This document shows, one piece after another, positions 42,908 to 47,225 of a DNA stretch of 64,000 nucleotides; within the stretch, counting starts at the first letter, position 1, and each line of letters starts with the position of its first letter. A program made the translations under genes and the position numbers. The notes beneath the pieces were generated by a model. The model saw only the letters and a list, made by a program, of their open reading frames with translations, made no database searches and had not been told where the DNA came from. The DNA comes from an uncultured bacterium (GTDB lineage Bacteria; Patescibacteriota; Minisyncoccia; UBA6257; GWB1-50-10), in contig CAVRNT010000002.1 in NCBI GenBank assembly GCA_963722655.1, positions 138,520 through 202,519 of the forward strand, given 5' to 3'.

Positions 42908-43699
42908 TCACAAGAGCGAGTTCTCTTTTTGTTTCTTAAAATATTTCCTAAGAATATCAATGATGTCTTCGGCGACTTCTTTCTCCGGCTTATCGCCGTC
43001 AACCGATCGAAATATTCCCTCTCCGTCATCGCGATCCATACCTCTTTCGTAGACGTTATTCCAATAGCGCAACACCGGAAGGTCTTCACCATTCAAAGAC
43101 TTACTGGACTCAAAAGAACGCGCCACGGCTGCTTTTGGGTCGGAACGAATGAATATGTTCACATCAGGGTAATAGTATCGATCGAGAGCCGTTTTTTCTT
43201 CCTTGAACATCCTTTCGGCCACGCAACTGCCAAAACCGAAGTTCTCCGTCGAGTAGATCGCGCGCGATCTGCTCCTGAAGACAAAGAAGTTTTCATTGAC
43301 CTTCGGTATGACGTTGAACTTCAGGTCGCAAAGCTCGTCGCAAACGATGAGCAATCCAAGGTCGAAAGCATCCGGCCTATCGCCCATTTGCAGGGATTTC
43401 GATATCTGCTCGATTCGCAATGGAATGTCGGAAAAGCTTTTTTCGAAGTACTCGCCGAAGTCGTTCAGAAACCGACGAACGGCGGGTGCGAATTCTATAA
43501 TGGCGAGCTCTGATGTCGCCGCCGGTTCAGACTTTTTGTCGACCGCCAATTTAAACATCCGCATGAAGGTGGAATTTGTCCTTTCCTTATAGCCGGCTAC
43601 TTTGATCCCTCGATCTTTGGCGTAAGCTGCCACTTTCCCGAAGACCTTCGATCTCCCAGAGAAAGGAATCCCGAAAAAAACAACGAAAATGCCGTTCAT
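42908..43699 (-). CDS. P-loop kinase-like protein (thymidylate/dNMP kinase-like) with Arg-substituted Walker A
   Basis: VVFFGIPFSGRSKV resembles GxxGSGKST of Tmk/dNK but has R in place of the Walker Lys. ...YAKDRGIKVAGYKERTNSTFMRMFK resembles the Tmk lid/REPGGT region. Lower GC. Adjacent to thymidylate genes. Confidence 0.4.
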   Translation of the reverse strand: MNGIFVVFFGIPFSGRSKVFGKVAAYAKDRGIKVAGYKERTNSTFMRMFKLAVDKKSEPAATSELAIIEFAPAVRRFLNDFGEYFEKSFSDIPLRIEQISKSLQMGDRPDAFDLGLLIVCDELCDLKFNVIPKVNENFFVFRSRSRAIYSTENFGFGSCVAERMFKEEKTALDRYYYPDVNIFIRSDPKAAVARSFESSKSLNGEDLPVLRYWNNVYERGMDRDDGEGIFRSVDGDKPEKEVAEDIIDILRKYFKKQKENSLL

Positions 43700-43829: not shown

Positions 43830-44477
43830 ATGAATGACCTGTTCGGTCCCGGCAGTAATTTCGACAATCGTTTTGTCGCCGATCACGCAGAACTCAAAGA
43901 AAGAGTGGGTGCCTGTCGCAAACTGAGCAAGAAGATAGTCCTGACTTCAGGCGCTTGGGACATACTCCATATCGGCCATTGCGGCTATCTGGAAGCGGCT
44001 AAAAAGTCGACGGGTTCCAACGGCGAAAATACCGTTCTGATAGTCGGTGTGGATAGCGACGAAAAGATACGCGCCAAGAAGGGTAAGAGCCGTCCCATCG
44101 TCCCAGAAAAAGAACGGATGGGAATCCTCTGCCACATTCGGCACGTCGACCTGGTGGTCTTGAAAAACCAAGGCGAAGAAAAATGGGCGTTGATCAAGGC
44201 GGTCAAGCCCGACATTCTCGTCATTTCGGAAAGGACGGAATATTCCGAAGATGAGCGGAACCAGCTCAAAGAGTGGTGTGGAGAGATAGTCGTCCTGGAA
44301 TCACAAGCCACCACATCGACAACCGCTAAGATCAGATTGCTTATAGTGGGCGTGGCTCGAGAGGCCAGGGAAAGCTTCAATAAGCTCGAGAAGGATATTT
44401 TGGACATTTTGAGCGAGTTCAAGAACTTCCTGGACCAGCTGCCAAGCGGCGTGGAGAAAAGCGAGGATAAGAGATGA
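43830..44477 (+). CDS. Cytidylyltransferase-like nucleotidyltransferase (HxGH class)
   Basis: VLTSGAWDILHIGHCGYLEAAKK, the (T/H)xGH motif of TagD/RfaE-II/PPAT-type nucleotidyltransferases. AAGGAGA RBS. The stop overlaps the next gene's ATG. Confidence 0.55.
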   Translation: MNDLFGPGSNFDNRFVADHAELKERVGACRKLSKKIVLTSGAWDILHIGHCGYLEAAKKSTGSNGENTVLIVGVDSDEKIRAKKGKSRPIVPEKERMGILCHIRHVDLVVLKNQGEEKWALIKAVKPDILVISERTEYSEDERNQLKEWCGEIVVLESQATTSTTAKIRLLIVGVAREARESFNKLEKDILDILSEFKNFLDQLPSGVEKSEDKR

Positions 44478-45334
44478 AGACCGTTCTTGCTTACGTTCCC
44501 GTACTGCACCGCGGCTACGTCGATTTCTTCAAGCGTCATGGCGGGCCGAAAAGCGCTTTGTATATTTTCGGACGAGAATTGATAGAGAGATTCGATTTCT
44601 TCCGAAAGGACATCAGAGCGCTTGACCCGCACGAAGCCGCCAAGACGATCAAGGCCCTCGACCTGTTCGGTAGCGTGATGATCACCGATGATTCTTCTCT
44701 TGAACTTCTATCTATGACGAAACGCAGCTTGATCATGCCAGACGAGGATGTTTCCCGAGCCATCGCGCAGGAAAGCCTCGCCGGATGCGGTGTTACTTTC
44801 GACGCCGTTTTCCTCCGATGGGACTCAAAAAGTTCCGTCCGGAAATGCGACGTGAAAGCGGACCGGACCGTCTCGCGGGAGGCCTGTGCAACAATGATGA
44901 TGCGGGCCGCTCAAAAAGAAGGCGAGAAAAGTTCGGATTGGTGGCGGCATGTCGGCGCAATCGTGGCACGCGGCGAAGAAACGATATTGGTCGCTTATAA
45001 CCACCACGTTCCATCCCCCCACATGCCCTACGCTTTCGGCGACCCGCGGAGCTACTTCAAAAAAAGTATCAACATCGAGATATCGACGGCTTTCCACGCA
45101 GAAGCTTCAGCTATCGCCTCCGCCGCCGCAAACGGCATCAATTTATCCTCGGCCGACATTTACACCACGACGTTCCCCTGTCCGCCTTGCGCCAAGCTCA
45201 TCGCCTACAGCGGCATCAAGCGATTGCTCTTTAAAGACGGCTATTCCATGCTGGATGCCCAAGATATTCTGCGTTCCAAGGGTATTGAGATCGTTCGCGT
45301 CACGGATTTAGAAAAAAACGCCCCGCTTCCATAA
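44474..45334 (+). CDS. dCMP/cytidine deaminase-family protein with a roughly 130-aa N-terminal extension
   Basis: The C-terminal half carries the zinc-binding HAE (FHAEASAI) and PCxxC (PCPPCAKLI) motifs. The N-terminal domain has no recognised family. Confidence 0.65.
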   Translation: MKTVLAYVPVLHRGYVDFFKRHGGPKSALYIFGRELIERFDFFRKDIRALDPHEAAKTIKALDLFGSVMITDDSSLELLSMTKRSLIMPDEDVSRAIAQESLAGCGVTFDAVFLRWDSKSSVRKCDVKADRTVSREACATMMMRAAQKEGEKSSDWWRHVGAIVARGEETILVAYNHHVPSPHMPYAFGDPRSYFKKSINIEISTAFHAEASAIASAAANGINLSSADIYTTTFPCPPCAKLIAYSGIKRLLFKDGYSMLDAQDILRSKGIEIVRVTDLEKNAPLP

Positions 45335-45354
45335 TACCGGAAACGGGGCTTTTA

Positions 45355-46323
45355 TTAACCTATTTTTTCTTCTTTTTTCTTCGCGCTCATCCTGAATTTT
45401 AGGTCAGCGAACTCCAGATCGTTTGGATTGTACGGCACTAGAACGTGAACATGCAGGTGAGAAACGGTGCCGCCGTTAAATTTTGCGTCACCGAAACGGA
45501 TTCCGACGCCCCCGCTCTCAATGTTGTATTCTTTTTCTAGCCAGCCTACCATCTCGATCATTTCAGCTCCAGCGAGAGGATTTAATTCTGACATTCGTTC
45601 GGCATGATCCAAAGAAATCAAGAGAAAGCTGCGTTTAGCATTCTCATACCTCCATTGGTTCTCTGTCACAATCCAGAATTTTCCTTCTTTCAGTATCGGC
45701 TTTGAATGCTCTTTCAACAGATTTTCTTTACAGAATGGACACTCCCCGCGAGCTTGAATACGTTCCAAGGCTTCACGCTGTTCATCAGAACGAGCATTTC
45801 TCAAGACCACGAAAGATTTTCTCTTAAGGTCTTGGAACACGAAAGCATGGTCGTCCACCCCTGGATTAGCGGAGTACCTAGCATCACCGTCTCCCAACCA
45901 TTCTGATTCATCAATTGTCGGAAAGAAAACATCTCCTTCCGGCGCGCATTCAACCAAAGTCTGGTACATTTTATGCGCGTACGGTAGAAATAATGCGTAG
46001 ATTTCTGCTCCACCAATCACAAAAACCTCTGTCTCATTCTGCACGAGATCAATGGCCTCCTGCACAGAGTGGGCAATTTCAAAACCAGGAAGCGAAAGAT
46101 CATGATTGCGTGTCAGGACGATGTTACGCCTTTTCGGCAATGGTTTACCGGTCCGCCGCAAAATCGCTTCCGCGGTCTTCCGCCCCATAATCACAGCATG
46201 GCCTTCAGTTATGGCCTTAAATCGCCTTAAATCGCTCTTCAGATGCCATGGCAGATCTCCGTTTTTACCTATGACCCGGTTTTGGGCCATAGCGACGATG
46301 ATGGATATCATACCGGTGTCCAT
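45355..46323 (-). CDS. folA: Dihydrofolate reductase fused to a C-terminal HIT (histidine triad) domain
   Basis: The N-terminal roughly 160 aa carry the DHFR motifs ISIIVAMAQNRVIGKNGDLPWHLKSDLRRFK...VIMGRKT. The C-terminus carries CPFCKE and the triad GGTVSHLHVHVLVP (HxHxHxx). The ATG overlaps the thyA-like gene by 16 nt. Confidence 0.7.
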   Translation of the reverse strand: MDTGMISIIVAMAQNRVIGKNGDLPWHLKSDLRRFKAITEGHAVIMGRKTAEAILRRTGKPLPKRRNIVLTRNHDLSLPGFEIAHSVQEAIDLVQNETEVFVIGGAEIYALFLPYAHKMYQTLVECAPEGDVFFPTIDESEWLGDGDARYSANPGVDDHAFVFQDLKRKSFVVLRNARSDEQREALERIQARGECPFCKENLLKEHSKPILKEGKFWIVTENQWRYENAKRSFLLISLDHAERMSELNPLAGAEMIEMVGWLEKEYNIESGGVGIRFGDAKFNGGTVSHLHVHVLVPYNPNDLEFADLKFRMSAKKKEEKIG

Positions 46324-47225
46324 ATTCTCCTCCTTTCAAGCTGGGGGTGGTAATCCTTGACCGTGAAATGCTCTGGCCGAAAAGAGAAAATATCGGTGAC
46401 AGACTGATCCAGTTCGACCGTGGAGAATCTCTGTGGCTCGGTTTGGAGCATATCCTTCACATCCTGGACCTGCTTAACGTAGATGTGGGCGTCGATAATG
46501 GCATAGACTAGTTCTTTCGCCCGGTAGCCTGTTACTTGGGCTAGCATCAACGTCAGGGCCGCATATTGAATAATATTGCAAACCAACCCGACCGGTACGT
46601 CAGCACTCCGCTGAAGATGGAATAGGCTGAACTCTTTCTTGTCCGGTATGAGTTCGACATCGAACCAACCATGGCAGGGAGCTACTACAACCTTTTGTTG
46701 TTTACCCTTACCGCGGAAGGTATACTGCGGCACCCAAGGGCTCACGAAGTGGGTCCGCAGGTGAGGCAATTCTTTCATCTGTTCGATCAAATTGGTTATC
46801 TGATCAAATGGTTTCCCTTCCGCAGTCGGAAACCTTCGCCAGGCGGCTCCGTAAGAACCGGGACCGAGGTCGCCGGCCGCAAGGCCGCGCTTAGCGCACT
46901 TTTCCGGCGTCACCCATCTATCCCACCAACTGCAGCCGAATTTAACTAGCTCTTCTTGGGTTTGGGCGCCGTTCAAAAAAGCGGTGATTTCCCCCAATGA
47001 TTGGTTGAATATGGACGACGTCTTCTTGCCGGGCGCGACCAAATCCCTTTCAGTAATGATCGGGAACCCGTTCTCCATGTCGAACCTTATGAGATGACCG
47101 AAGACCTTAAAAGCATCTTCTCCCTGCTGAGGGTGCACGAGCTTTGGGCTTCTCAAGATCCTGCTCAACAGATCACGATACTGGTGGTCTGGGTACCTCA
47201 AATTGAAATCCCTGTAATGTATCAT
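46308..47225 (-). CDS. thyA: Thymidylate synthase (ThyA family, divergent)
   Basis: GDLGPGSYGAAWR, APCHGWF (catalytic Cys), LQRSADVPVGLVCNIIQYAALTLMLAQVTG, DAHIYV. Asn retained in the NIxxY block, consistent with dUMP specificity. AGGAGGT RBS. Confidence 0.7.
   Translation of the reverse strand: MIHYRDFNLRYPDHQYRDLLSRILRSPKLVHPQQGEDAFKVFGHLIRFDMENGFPIITERDLVAPGKKTSSIFNQSLGEITAFLNGAQTQEELVKFGCSWWDRWVTPEKCAKRGLAAGDLGPGSYGAAWRRFPTAEGKPFDQITNLIEQMKELPHLRTHFVSPWVPQYTFRGKGKQQKVVVAPCHGWFDVELIPDKKEFSLFHLQRSADVPVGLVCNIIQYAALTLMLAQVTGYRAKELVYAIIDAHIYVKQVQDVKDMLQTEPQRFSTVELDQSVTDIFSFRPEHFTVKDYHPQLERRRIWTPV

What the first reader, a model, noticed from the sequence alone, without database searches (positions are those of the whole stretch)
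45355..46323. DHFR fused in one polypeptide to a histidine-triad (HIT) domain
The N-terminal roughly 160 aa carry DHFR motifs. The C-terminal roughly 150 aa carry CPFCKE...SHLHVHVLVP, a canonical HIT HxHxHxx nucleotide-binding triad. HIT enzymes hydrolyse or transfer nucleotidyl groups. Coupling this to DHFR inside a thyA operon is not a fusion I know as described. It could tie folate recycling to nucleotide (dinucleoside polyphosphate or dNMP-derivative) turnover.
Basis: seen in the sequence. Interest (0 to 1): 0.55.

Follow-up and report, generated by a model that had tools for sequence, protein, structure and literature searches.

The report
DHFR fused to thymidylate-island HIT enzyme
A candidate-phyla (Patescibacteria) bacterium encodes a real fusion of dihydrofolate reductase to a histidine-triad nucleotide enzyme, and that HIT type sits in thymidylate-synthesis gene clusters across the group, pointing to an uncharacterised step in making DNA's thymine nucleotide.

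Summary
Window 45355-46323 (minus strand) is one uninterrupted 322-aa ORF. Residues 5-165 are a canonical DHFR. Residues ~171-312 are a zinc-type HIT domain (CPFC; HLHVHVLVP).

It is not a frameshift artefact. At least 70 full-length homologues at 34-52% identity carry the same architecture.

The HIT belongs to a distinct, unnamed subfamily. In 80 species-level Patescibacteria loci it lies beside:
- a thymidylate synthase (78/80)
- an HldC/TagD-like nucleotidyltransferase (73/80)
- a long dCMP deaminase (75/80) whose N-terminal domain has a degenerate nucleotidyltransferase fold

DHFR is a dispensable partner. It is a separate gene, absent from the flank, or fused. The same HIT is also found fused to ThyA or duplicated in tandem.

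The fusion is therefore a Rosetta-stone link between an uncharacterised HIT and thymidylate synthesis, not folate chemistry as such.

The mechanism is inferred. His291 probably forms a covalent NMP intermediate on a pyrimidine (deoxy)nucleotidyl conjugate or polyphosphate, probably made by the partner nucleotidyltransferase. Whether the NMP then goes to water or to phosphate is unresolved.

No paper describes this. Only automatic annotations name the two domains.

The parts
45355..46323 (-). Single ORF, 322 aa: the DHFR-HIT fusion protein (stop codon 45355-45357)
   Evidence: ORF list. Identical protein P0001 is in public collections. About 74 full-length homologues. AlphaFold model pLDDT 94, pTM 0.81.
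45829..46311 (-). DHFR domain, aa 5-165
45388..45813 (-). HIT domain, aa 171-312. It includes a family-specific N-terminal strand and helix that join the last DHFR strand with essentially no linker.
45730..45741 (-). CPFC (C195, C198), the presumed zinc ligands together with H240 and H289
   Evidence: Cys is present at each of the two positions in 214 of 224 family domains. The best structural match is a zinc-containing HIT. The zinc-site assignment is an inference by analogy with GalT and Zn-HIT structures (own knowledge).
45433..45459 (-). Histidine triad HLHVHVLVP (H289, H291 presumed nucleophile, H293)
   Evidence: Sequence. H289 in 218/224, H291 in 219/224, position 293 is H in 168 and Q in 53.
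46308..47225 (-). thyA, thymidylate synthase, the upstream gene of the operon. Its stop overlaps the DHFR-HIT start by 16 nt.
   Evidence: Pfam E 3.6e-58. TIGR03284 scores 157 bits, above its cutoff of 108. Coordinates.
45320..45349 (.). 12-bp GC-rich hairpin between the two convergent operons. A T-run follows it on the minus strand. TTTTATT follows on the plus strand, so it is a likely bidirectional terminator.
   Evidence: Terminator scan, minus-strand hit. The plus-strand tail was read from the sequence.
44474..45334 (+). Long dCMP deaminase, 286 aa, a conserved module partner. Its N-terminal ~115 aa form a degenerate nucleotidyltransferase-like domain (motif LHRGY). Its C-terminal half is the zinc deaminase.
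43830..44477 (+). HldC/TagD-like nucleotidyltransferase, 215 aa, with an intact HIGH motif. A conserved module partner whose stop overlaps the deaminase start by 4 nt.
   Evidence: Pfam CTP_transf_like E 1.8e-13. TIGR02199 rfaE_dom_II 102 bits, below its cutoff. PDB HldC 5x9q E 8.9e-15, then ECT, CCT and TagD. Present in 73/80 loci.

Best explanation
SHOWN. The ORF encodes a genuine two-domain protein. One domain is a canonical NADPH-type dihydrofolate reductase. It is joined without a linker to a zinc-type histidine-triad (HIT) nucleotidyl enzyme of a distinct, unnamed subfamily centred on Patescibacteria. The fusion arose by joining two neighbouring genes (folA then hit) of a conserved thymidylate island. 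The island contains:
- thyA, or an MtrA/ThyA-like/DUF4346 protein in its place
- folA
- this HIT
- an HldC/TagD-like nucleotidyltransferase
- a long dCMP deaminase with a degenerate nucleotidyltransferase-like N-domain
- often glyA, dut and tmk

INFERRED. The DHFR half recycles the dihydrofolate made by ThyA, as in any thyA-folA operon. The HIT half uses His291 to form a covalent (d)NMP-enzyme intermediate on a pyrimidine (deoxy)nucleotide carrying a leaving group on its alpha-phosphate.

The most likely substrate is an NDP-X conjugate made from (d)CTP by the partner nucleotidyltransferase. A dNTP or a dinucleoside polyphosphate is the alternative. The HIT would release dCMP or dUMP, which the deaminase and ThyA convert to dTMP. 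The net effect of nucleotidyltransferase plus HIT would be (d)NTP -> (d)NMP + PPi. That is the otherwise unassigned step feeding a dCMP-deaminase route.

Tethering to DHFR or ThyA would hold the enzymes in one complex. HIT enzymes are normally dimers, so the fusion would also dimerise DHFR.
For: Real fusion:
- Uninterrupted ORF.
- About 74 full-length homologues.
- 43 of the top 150 cluster representatives have the HIT C-terminal to a longer N-terminal part. All five scanned carry DHFR.
- Identical product on a second assembly.
- Confident two-domain model.

Both halves look functional:
- DHFR catalytic and binding residues are invariant.
- The HIT nucleophile His is present in 219/224 domains and in all 107 N-terminally fused ones.
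- The CxxC and His zinc ligands are conserved.

Functional link to thymidylate synthesis:
- In 80 species-level loci the HIT lies within 6 kb of ThyA or the ThyA-like protein in 78, the nucleotidyltransferase in 73 and the deaminase in 75, in at least 5 different gene orders.
- The same HIT is fused to ThyA (P0160/P0388).
- Starting from the deaminase recovers the same cluster, with SHMT, Tmk and Dut added.
- A separate ordinary 122-aa Hint-like HIT lies nearby in the same genome as a DHFR-HIT (L004). The island HIT is therefore a specialised paralogue.

Nucleotidyltransferase partnership:
- The CTP_transf gene is translationally coupled to the HIT (L003) or to the deaminase (window).
- The deaminase N-domain has the same fold.
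- The closest solved relatives make NDP-X from NTP plus X-phosphate.
Against: - No substrate was tested, and the acceptor 'X' is unknown.
- Variant clusters carry a NUDIX gene between the HIT and the deaminase. A NUDIX enzyme could by itself perform dNTP -> dNMP.
- A canonical dUTPase sits in some clusters, so the HIT is not needed for dUTP -> dUMP.
- The subfamily lacks the Gln/Asn phosphate ligands of the hydrolytic Hint and Fhit branches, and 24% of members have HxHxQ as in the transferase GalT. This favours transfer to phosphate over hydrolysis.
- The window's own copy departs from the family consensus at two well-conserved positions, P225->R and H232->S. H232 is the equivalent of FHIT His35, and His is found there in 198/224 domains. 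Its activity may be altered.
- DHFR is fused in a minority of loci, so physical coupling to DHFR is not essential.
Confidence: 0.5

Rival explanations
1. The HIT is a nucleotidyl transferase or phosphorylase, not a hydrolase. The His291-dNMP intermediate is resolved by phosphate or pyrophosphate, as in Ap4A phosphorylase Rv2613c, ADP-glucose phosphorylase or GalT. This would give dNDP or dNTP. With the nucleotidyltransferase it would interconvert NTP + Pi and NDP + PPi. That could act as a PPi-linked bypass of a nucleoside mono- or diphosphate kinase step on the way to dTTP.
For: - The position equivalent to FHIT Q90 / HINT1 Q106 is Gly, Ala or Ser. From memory, Rv2613c has Gly there.
- FHIT Q83 / HINT1 N99 is Gly278 in 220/224 domains.
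- The third triad position is Gln in 53/224, the GalT-type HxHxQ.
- The weak NCBIfam hit of a stand-alone member is to actinobacterial ATP adenylyltransferase.
- The window's Tmk-like ORF is highly divergent.
Against: - Canonical Tmk is present in 13 of 80 clusters, so a bypass is not obviously needed.
- The NCBIfam score is 18 bits against a cutoff of 290.
- The significance of the Gly/Ser positions for phosphorolysis rests on my recollection of the Rv2613c mutagenesis study, which I could not retrieve.
Confidence: 0.22
2. The HIT is a generic housekeeping Hint/Ap4A-type scavenger that clears dinucleoside polyphosphates or adenylylated by-products. It merely travels with the thymidylate genes. 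The fusion to DHFR would then be a neutral accident of adjacency, or the HIT would only supply dimerisation.
For: - Sequence similarity to Hint, FHIT and aprataxin is of the same weak order for all branches.
- The fusion is the minority state, 3 of 19 adjacent pairs in species-level genomes.
- In a rough NJ tree fused and unfused forms are interleaved, with 44 Fitch changes over 224 leaves. This is compatible with easy gain and loss.
Against: - Synteny with thymidylate genes holds in 78/80 loci across many Patescibacteria lineages and several gene orders.
- It also holds in a high-GC, WhiB-containing lineage.
- There are independent fusions to ThyA as well as to DHFR.
- A separate ordinary Hint-like gene exists in the same genome as a DHFR-HIT.
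- The subfamily has its own signature (RFGD, G-[AGS]-[TS]-V-x-HLH) with 223/224 Arg276.
Confidence: 0.15
3. The HIT and nucleotidyltransferase pair serves the pterin cofactor rather than the nucleotide substrate. For example, it could make or cleave a nucleotide-linked pterin, or salvage an imported folate or methanopterin-like cofactor for either type of thymidylate synthase.
For: - The HIT is always beside a pterin-dependent enzyme: ThyA+DHFR, or the MtrA/ThyA-like/PterinBD-DUF4346 protein.
- In some loci the membrane proteins DUF4430 and DUF6580, possible vitamin-uptake components, lie directly upstream of the nucleotidyltransferase.
- The HIT is physically fused to the folate enzyme DHFR.
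Against: - The nucleotidyltransferase is translationally coupled to the dCMP deaminase, whose N-domain shares its fold.
- I know of no nucleotide-conjugated folate intermediate (own knowledge).
- 18 loci have ThyA and HIT but no DHFR within the flank.
Confidence: 0.08
4. Assembly or sequencing artefact: two separate genes (folA, hit) joined by a missed frameshift or lost stop in this assembly.
For: In many relatives folA and hit are separate, adjacent or overlapping genes. L090 shows a 17-nt overlap. L010, L020, L024 and L025 are further examples.
Against: - The same in-frame architecture occurs in about 74 divergent homologues from many samples.
- It occurs in three species-level genomes, L006, L011 and L014.
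- The identical protein is called on a second assembly.
- The junction aligns residue for residue with the N-termini of stand-alone HITs.
Confidence: 0.02

Closest known systems
Bifunctional DHFR-TS of protozoa and plants (e.g. PDB 2bl9, 8dae, 3qfx)
   Different: The partner here is a HIT nucleotidyl enzyme, not thymidylate synthase. ThyA remains a separate upstream gene. The order is DHFR at the N-terminus with no junction peptide. The organism is a bacterium.
NitFhit Rosetta-stone fusion (C. elegans, PDB 1ems)
   Same: A HIT domain is fused to an unrelated metabolic enzyme. The fusion was used to infer a functional link. The HIT dimer forms the core. It appears as a weak sequence and fold match.
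   Different: That fusion has a Fhit-branch HIT with the Gln ligands, a nitrilase partner and a eukaryotic host. Here the HIT is of another subfamily and is embedded in an operon context that names the pathway.
Ap4A phosphorylase Rv2613c (PDB 3ano) and actinobacterial ATP adenylyltransferase (NF052622)
   Different: Sequence similarity is marginal (E 0.015 with the profile; 18 bits against a cutoff of 290). This family has its own RFGD motif and an N-terminal helix plus CPFC. Phosphorylase activity was not tested.
Hint / zinc-containing HIT proteins (PDB 3r6f, 4zgl, 3o0m)
   Different: HINT1 Asn99 and Gln106 equivalents are Gly278 and Gly/Ala/Ser285. There is an extra N-terminal helix. The genomic context is dedicated.
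NadM-Nudix (bifunctional NMN adenylyltransferase / ADP-ribose pyrophosphatase, PDB 2qjt)
   Same: A precedent for pairing a PF01467-type nucleotidyltransferase with an enzyme that cleaves NDP-X pyrophosphate bonds. It appears among the fold matches of the long-deaminase model, which I assign to its N-terminal domain.
   Different: The pyrophosphatase there is a Nudix, not a HIT. The pathway is NAD/ADP-ribose, not thymidylate.

Membership tests
Dihydrofolate reductase (FolA, Pfam PF00186) | Profile match above the curated threshold over the whole domain | tested here: met
   177.6 bits against a cutoff of 25, aa 5-165 covering profile positions 1-156 of 159.
Dihydrofolate reductase (FolA, Pfam PF00186) | DHFR fold | tested here: met
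   [not shown]
Dihydrofolate reductase (FolA, Pfam PF00186) | Catalytic acid and folate/NADPH-binding residues (E. coli D27, W22, F31, R57, T113, G95-G96) | tested here: met
   D31, W26, F35, R65, T122 and G104-G105 are invariant or nearly so in 45 fusion homologues. The residue mapping to E. coli numbering is my own.
Dihydrofolate reductase (FolA, Pfam PF00186) | NADPH-dependent reduction of dihydrofolate | not testable with these tools
   Requires an enzyme assay or folA complementation.
HIT superfamily (Pfam PF01230 / clan) | HxHxHxx motif (x hydrophobic) with the central nucleophilic His | tested here: met
   HLHVHVLVP at aa 289-297. H291 is present in 219/224 family domains.
HIT superfamily (Pfam PF01230 / clan) | Profile match above the curated threshold | tested here: met
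   Marginal: 21.8 bits against 21.5. Supported by the family profile against PDB at E 2.7e-5 and by hhalign at 94% probability.
HIT superfamily (Pfam PF01230 / clan) | Alpha+beta HIT fold | tested here: met
   [not shown]
HIT superfamily (Pfam PF01230 / clan) | Homodimer forming a continuous sheet | not tested
   Only a monomer was modelled. Tandem HIT-HIT genes and fusions in relatives are compatible with dimer formation.
Fhit branch (ApnA hydrolases) | Conserved Gln83 and Gln90 (human FHIT numbering, counted from the aligned FHIT sequence) near the triad, and His35 | tested here: not met
   hhalign places Gly278 at Q83, Gly285 at Q90 and Ser232 at H35. Family-wide, G278 is in 220/224, position 285 is A/G/S, and position 232 is His in 198/224 but Ser in the window.
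Hint branch (nucleoside phosphoramidases) | HINT1 Asn99 and Gln106 equivalents, and a C-terminal Trp-containing tail | tested here: not met
   Gly278 and Gly285 align with N99 and Q106. The C-terminus is unrelated.
Ap4A phosphorylase / ATP adenylyltransferase (NF052622, Rv2613c type) | NCBIfam equivalog score at or above 290 bits | tested here: not met
   No hit for the window domain. A stand-alone family member scores 18.3 bits.
GalT branch (nucleotidyl transferases) | Two tandem half-barrel HIT-like domains and an HxHxQ motif | tested here: not met
   [not shown]

The most novel reading that the evidence does not exclude
The HldC/TagD-like nucleotidyltransferase, this HIT and the long dCMP deaminase (nucleotidyltransferase-like N-domain plus zinc deaminase) form an undescribed three-enzyme route of pyrimidine deoxynucleotide metabolism. 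It would be conserved across Patescibacteria and some high-GC bacteria. A plausible form is dCTP -> dCDP-X -> dCMP/dUMP, or a Pi/PPi-linked nucleotidyl shuttle. The route would be physically docked to the thymidylate cycle through recurrent fusions of the HIT to DHFR or ThyA, forming a thymidylate 'metabolon'.
Probability: 0.3. Interest if true: 0.75.

Novelty: new variant of a known kind. Interest (0 to 1): 0.58.

Why it matters
Patescibacteria have tiny genomes and depend on salvage. Genes they keep, cluster and repeatedly fuse are therefore likely to matter.

Two conserved enzymes of unknown substrate, a HIT and a nucleotidyltransferase, sit in the middle of an otherwise textbook dTMP pathway (ThyA, DHFR, SHMT, dCMP deaminase, dUTPase, Tmk). 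That predicts a missing reaction in deoxypyrimidine supply.

One candidate is the step that provides dCMP to dCMP deaminase, which as far as I know is poorly defined in organisms lacking dCTP deaminase.

The DHFR-HIT and HIT-ThyA fusions give a directly testable handle: one recombinant protein, a defined nucleophile and a short substrate panel. They also add a second kind of DHFR fusion beside the classic DHFR-TS.

Tried and rejected
- **Frameshift artefact.** Rejected on homologue conservation and a second assembly.
- **HIT as a substitute for dUTPase.** Rejected because canonical dUTPase genes sit in the same clusters.
- **HIT tied specifically to folate or DHFR.** Weakened, because the HIT persists where DHFR and ThyA are replaced by an MtrA/ThyA-like/DUF4346 protein, and because 18 ThyA loci show no DHFR within the flank.
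- **Assignment to the Fhit, Hint, GalT or Ap4A-phosphorylase branches.** Each failed at least one defining feature.
- **Phage origin.** No PHROG matches the HIT domain.
- **Literature.** Five full-text searches found nothing on the DHFR-HIT fusion, the gene cluster or DUF4346 with thymidylate. A sixth, for the Rv2613c mutagenesis paper, did not retrieve it.
- **AFDB fold search.** The library was unavailable.
- **Other genes in the window.** tblastn found no second Hint-like HIT, dut, canonical tmk, glyA or folD within the 64 kb. This says nothing about the rest of the genome.
- **Word-indexed search with the HIT half alone.** It returned only 5 stand-alone proteins. The exhaustive profile search was needed to see the family.
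Full report
**1. What is there**

Window 45355-46323 holds a single ATG-initiated ORF of 322 aa on the minus strand.
- Its start codon lies 16 nt inside the 3' end of thyA (46308-47225, minus).
- It is preceded by AAAGGAGGAG.
- A 12-bp GC-rich hairpin with a T-run (45349-45320) follows the stop codon.

thyA and this ORF therefore form a two-gene operon. It converges on a second operon: nucleotidyltransferase 43830-44477 and long dCMP deaminase 44474-45334, both on the plus strand and overlapping by 4 nt.

**2. Both domains are real**

DHFR:
- Pfam DHFR_1 matches aa 5-165 at E 1.9e-52.
- Residues corresponding to E. coli D27, W22, F31, R57, T113 and G95-G96 are invariant or nearly so in 45 homologues (residue mapping is mine).

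HIT:
- The C-terminal half only just passes Pfam HIT (21.8 against 21.5 bits).
- A profile of this domain plus five stand-alone relatives finds Hint-like, FHIT, Hint2, aprataxin and Ap4A-phosphorylase chains at E 2.7e-5 to 1.5e-2.
- hhalign gives about 94% probability to human FHIT and HINT1.
- The quoted motifs are at aa 195-198 (CPFC) and 289-297 (HLHVHVLVP).

**3. Not a frameshift**

- The word-indexed search returned about 74 proteins of 300-349 aa that cover more than 90% of the query at 34-52% identity. Many carry precomputed DHFR and HIT domains.
- In an exhaustive profile search of 1.84 billion cluster representatives, the HIT family had 181 members at E<=1e-30. Forty-three of the best 150 have the HIT C-terminal to a longer N-terminal part. 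All five that I scanned carry DHFR.
- The identical 322-aa product is also called on an independent Logan assembly.
- The junction has no linker. Residues 171 onward align from the very N-terminus of stand-alone 147-152 aa HITs.
- In relatives, folA and hit are adjacent or overlapping separate genes. L090 shows a 17-nt overlap. L010, L020, L024 and L025 are further examples. The fusion is thus the simple joining of neighbours.
- In a rough NJ tree of 224 HIT domains, fused and unfused forms are interleaved. This suggests repeated fusion or fission, though the tree is low resolution and the sample is biased towards fusions.

**4. The informative part is the neighbourhood**

A scan of one genome per species returned 80 loci. 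Nearly all are titled as Patescibacteria lineages (Parcubacteria/Paceibacterota, Saccharibacteria, Woesebacteria, WWE3, Abawacabacteria and others). About a dozen carry generic 'bacterium' titles or Pseudomonadales/Gammaproteobacteria labels, which I take to be mislabelled.

tblastn with the window's proteins, within 6 kb of the HIT, gave these counts:

| Neighbour | Loci (of 80) |
|---|---|
| HldC/TagD-like nucleotidyltransferase | 73 |
| Long dCMP deaminase | 75 |
| Canonical ThyA | 62 |
| ThyA or a ~480-aa MtrA + ThyA-like + PterinBD-DUF4346 protein | 78 |
| DHFR (always together with ThyA) | 44 |
| SHMT | 24 |
| dUTPase | 23 |
| Tmk | 13 |

Further points:
- Gene order varies, with at least five arrangements, yet the set persists.
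- DHFR lies directly upstream of the HIT in 19 loci and is fused in 3 of them.
- Stand-alone HITs sit between thyA and the deaminase with no DHFR in the short contigs recovered (L001, L002), or are translationally coupled to the nucleotidyltransferase (L003).
- The same HIT is fused N-terminally to ThyA (P0160/P0388 = HRH31222.1, annotated only as thymidylate synthase).
- It is also found as tandem HIT-HIT or DHFR-HIT-HIT.
- One locus (L054) appears to fuse the long deaminase to ThyA. My script gave a single 549-aa ORF spanning both tblastn hits.
- Starting from the deaminase family recovers the same island, flanked by SHMT, Tmk and dUTPase.
- A high-GC lineage has thyA, DHFR-HIT, the nucleotidyltransferase and the deaminase together with a DUF4346 protein, ParB-CE and a MazG-like or HAD gene. 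One of its two contigs carries WhiB.

**5. What kind of HIT**

Over 224 domains the signature is C-P-F-C ... W ... N-x-x-P-Y ... H-x-L ... H ... R-F-G-D ... G-[AGS]-[TS]-V-x-H-L-H-x-[HQ].
- Arg276 is present in 223 domains, Gly278 in 220, His289 in 218 and His291 in 219. Position 293 is His in 168 and Gln in 53.
- The Gln/Asn residues that I recall as contacting the nucleotide phosphate in the hydrolytic branches are Gly here. FHIT Q83 and HINT1 N99 align with G278. FHIT Q90 and HINT1 Q106 align with G/A/S285.
- No NCBIfam model covers the family. The nearest are 18-bit hits to actinobacterial ATP adenylyltransferase and to mycoplasma HinT.
- It is therefore a bona fide HIT of its own subfamily. 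Its features lean towards the transferase/phosphorylase members: a small residue before the triad as in Rv2613c (from memory), and HxHxQ as in GalT in a quarter of members.
- The window's copy is slightly atypical. It has Arg instead of the consensus Pro at 225. It has Ser instead of His at 232, the FHIT His35 equivalent. The triad and zinc ligands are intact.

**6. The partners**

- The nucleotidyltransferase has an intact HIGH motif. Its closest solved relatives are HldC (heptose-1-phosphate adenylyltransferase, E 8.9e-15), ECT, CCT and TagD. All of these make NDP-X from NTP and a phosphorylated acceptor.
- The long deaminase belongs to a large family, with 1254 hits at E<=1e-10.
- The N-domain motif is a degenerate L-H-x-G-Y, with Y15 invariant and L11, H12 and G14 nearly so.
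- Cytidylyltransferases are dimers. The N-domain may therefore dock the stand-alone nucleotidyltransferase onto the deaminase. This is an inference.

**7. Mechanism**

Shown:
- a two-domain protein with intact DHFR and HIT catalytic residues
- operon coupling to ThyA
- pervasive synteny and fusions tying the HIT to thymidylate synthesis

Inferred:
- DHFR recycles ThyA's dihydrofolate.
- The HIT forms a His291-(d)NMP intermediate on a pyrimidine nucleotidyl donor, most economically the NDP-X product of the partner nucleotidyltransferase.
- It releases dCMP or dUMP to the deaminase and ThyA. The net effect would be (d)NTP -> (d)NMP + PPi.
- The main rival is that the intermediate is passed to Pi or PPi, making it a phosphorylase.
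- A dUTPase-replacement role is excluded by co-occurring dUTPase.
- A purely folate-related role is weakened by the DHFR-free clusters.
- A generic Hint role is weakened by the synteny and by a separate ordinary Hint-like gene in the same genome as a DHFR-HIT.
- The NUDIX gene in variant clusters is a caveat for the 'dNTP to dNMP' idea.

**8. Novelty**

No paper in the searchable library mentions a DHFR-HIT fusion, this cluster or the DUF4346 thymidylate-synthase-like protein. Automatic annotation (JGI) already names the two domains.

The parts are known folds. What is new is the architecture, the dedicated HIT subfamily and its place in a conserved thymidylate island. I rate it a new variant of a known kind with moderate-to-good interest. 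The function of the HIT and nucleotidyltransferase pair is the open and testable question.

Noticed in passing
L034:7781-9223 (+); also L027, L030, L047, L048, L050, L051, L056, L060, L061, L063, L065, L067, L073, L079, L083; 496-499 aa relatives in L091:9178-10668 and on the P0066 contig: A ~480-aa protein combines an MtrA-like N-domain, a methanogen-type ThyA-like core (TIGR03283, 141 bits, below its cutoff of 174) and a C-terminal PterinBD-DUF4346. It replaces ThyA+DHFR in Patescibacteria HIT clusters and is mutually exclusive with them there. In a high-GC lineage it co-occurs with them. No paper was found on DUF4346 with thymidylate.
   Followed up: partly
[not shown]
   Followed up: partly
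L087:6001-7395 (+) and L054:6419-8068 (-): Two other fusions occur in the same island. One is HIT-ThyA (464 aa, HRH31222.1, annotated only as thymidylate synthase). The other appears to be long deaminase-ThyA in one 549-aa ORF, judged from my ORF script and tblastn positions only.
   Followed up: partly
window 42908-43699 (-): A 263-aa ORF next to the nucleotidyltransferase has only faint thymidylate-kinase similarity (Pfam E 0.012; TIGR00041 E 3.5e-4) and an atypical P-loop-like GIPFSGRSK. tblastn found no counterpart in the 80 related loci.
   Followed up: partly
L087:5286-5864 (+): A DUF1599 gene ('nucleotide modification associated domain 1') lies directly upstream of the HIT-ThyA gene, next to a dUTPase gene. 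tblastn did not find it in the other loci.
   Followed up: no
L091:7930-8559 (-) and the P0066 contig: In the high-GC lineage, the cluster is flanked by a ParB-CE (PF24392) gene plus a HAD hydrolase or MazG-like pyrophosphatase, and by glutaredoxin. This suggests a larger nucleotide-metabolism island.
   Followed up: no
L003:459-1160, L034:4406-5453, L027, L050, L056, L057, L075: The membrane proteins DUF4430 and DUF6580 lie immediately upstream of the nucleotidyltransferase-HIT pair in several loci. They may be vitamin or cofactor uptake components.
   Followed up: no
L006, L023, L028, L029, L035, L037, L039, L040, L064, L089:6900-8051: Many islands carry two tandem HIT paralogues. The second type has CPFCTPD...IRDGD...HLHIHMMVP. 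In some proteins the two are fused (P0183, P0225, P0241, P0260, P0262). This is compatible with a heterodimeric HIT.
   Followed up: partly
L007-L009, L017-L019, L046, L049, L063, L079 (record titles): MAGs titled 'uncultured Pseudomonadales' or 'Gammaproteobacteria' carry the typical Patescibacteria island. The taxon labels look wrong.
   Followed up: no
window 45320-45349: The hairpin between the convergent operons overlaps the last codons and stop of the deaminase gene. It has T-rich tails on both strands, so it is a likely bidirectional terminator.
   Followed up: partly
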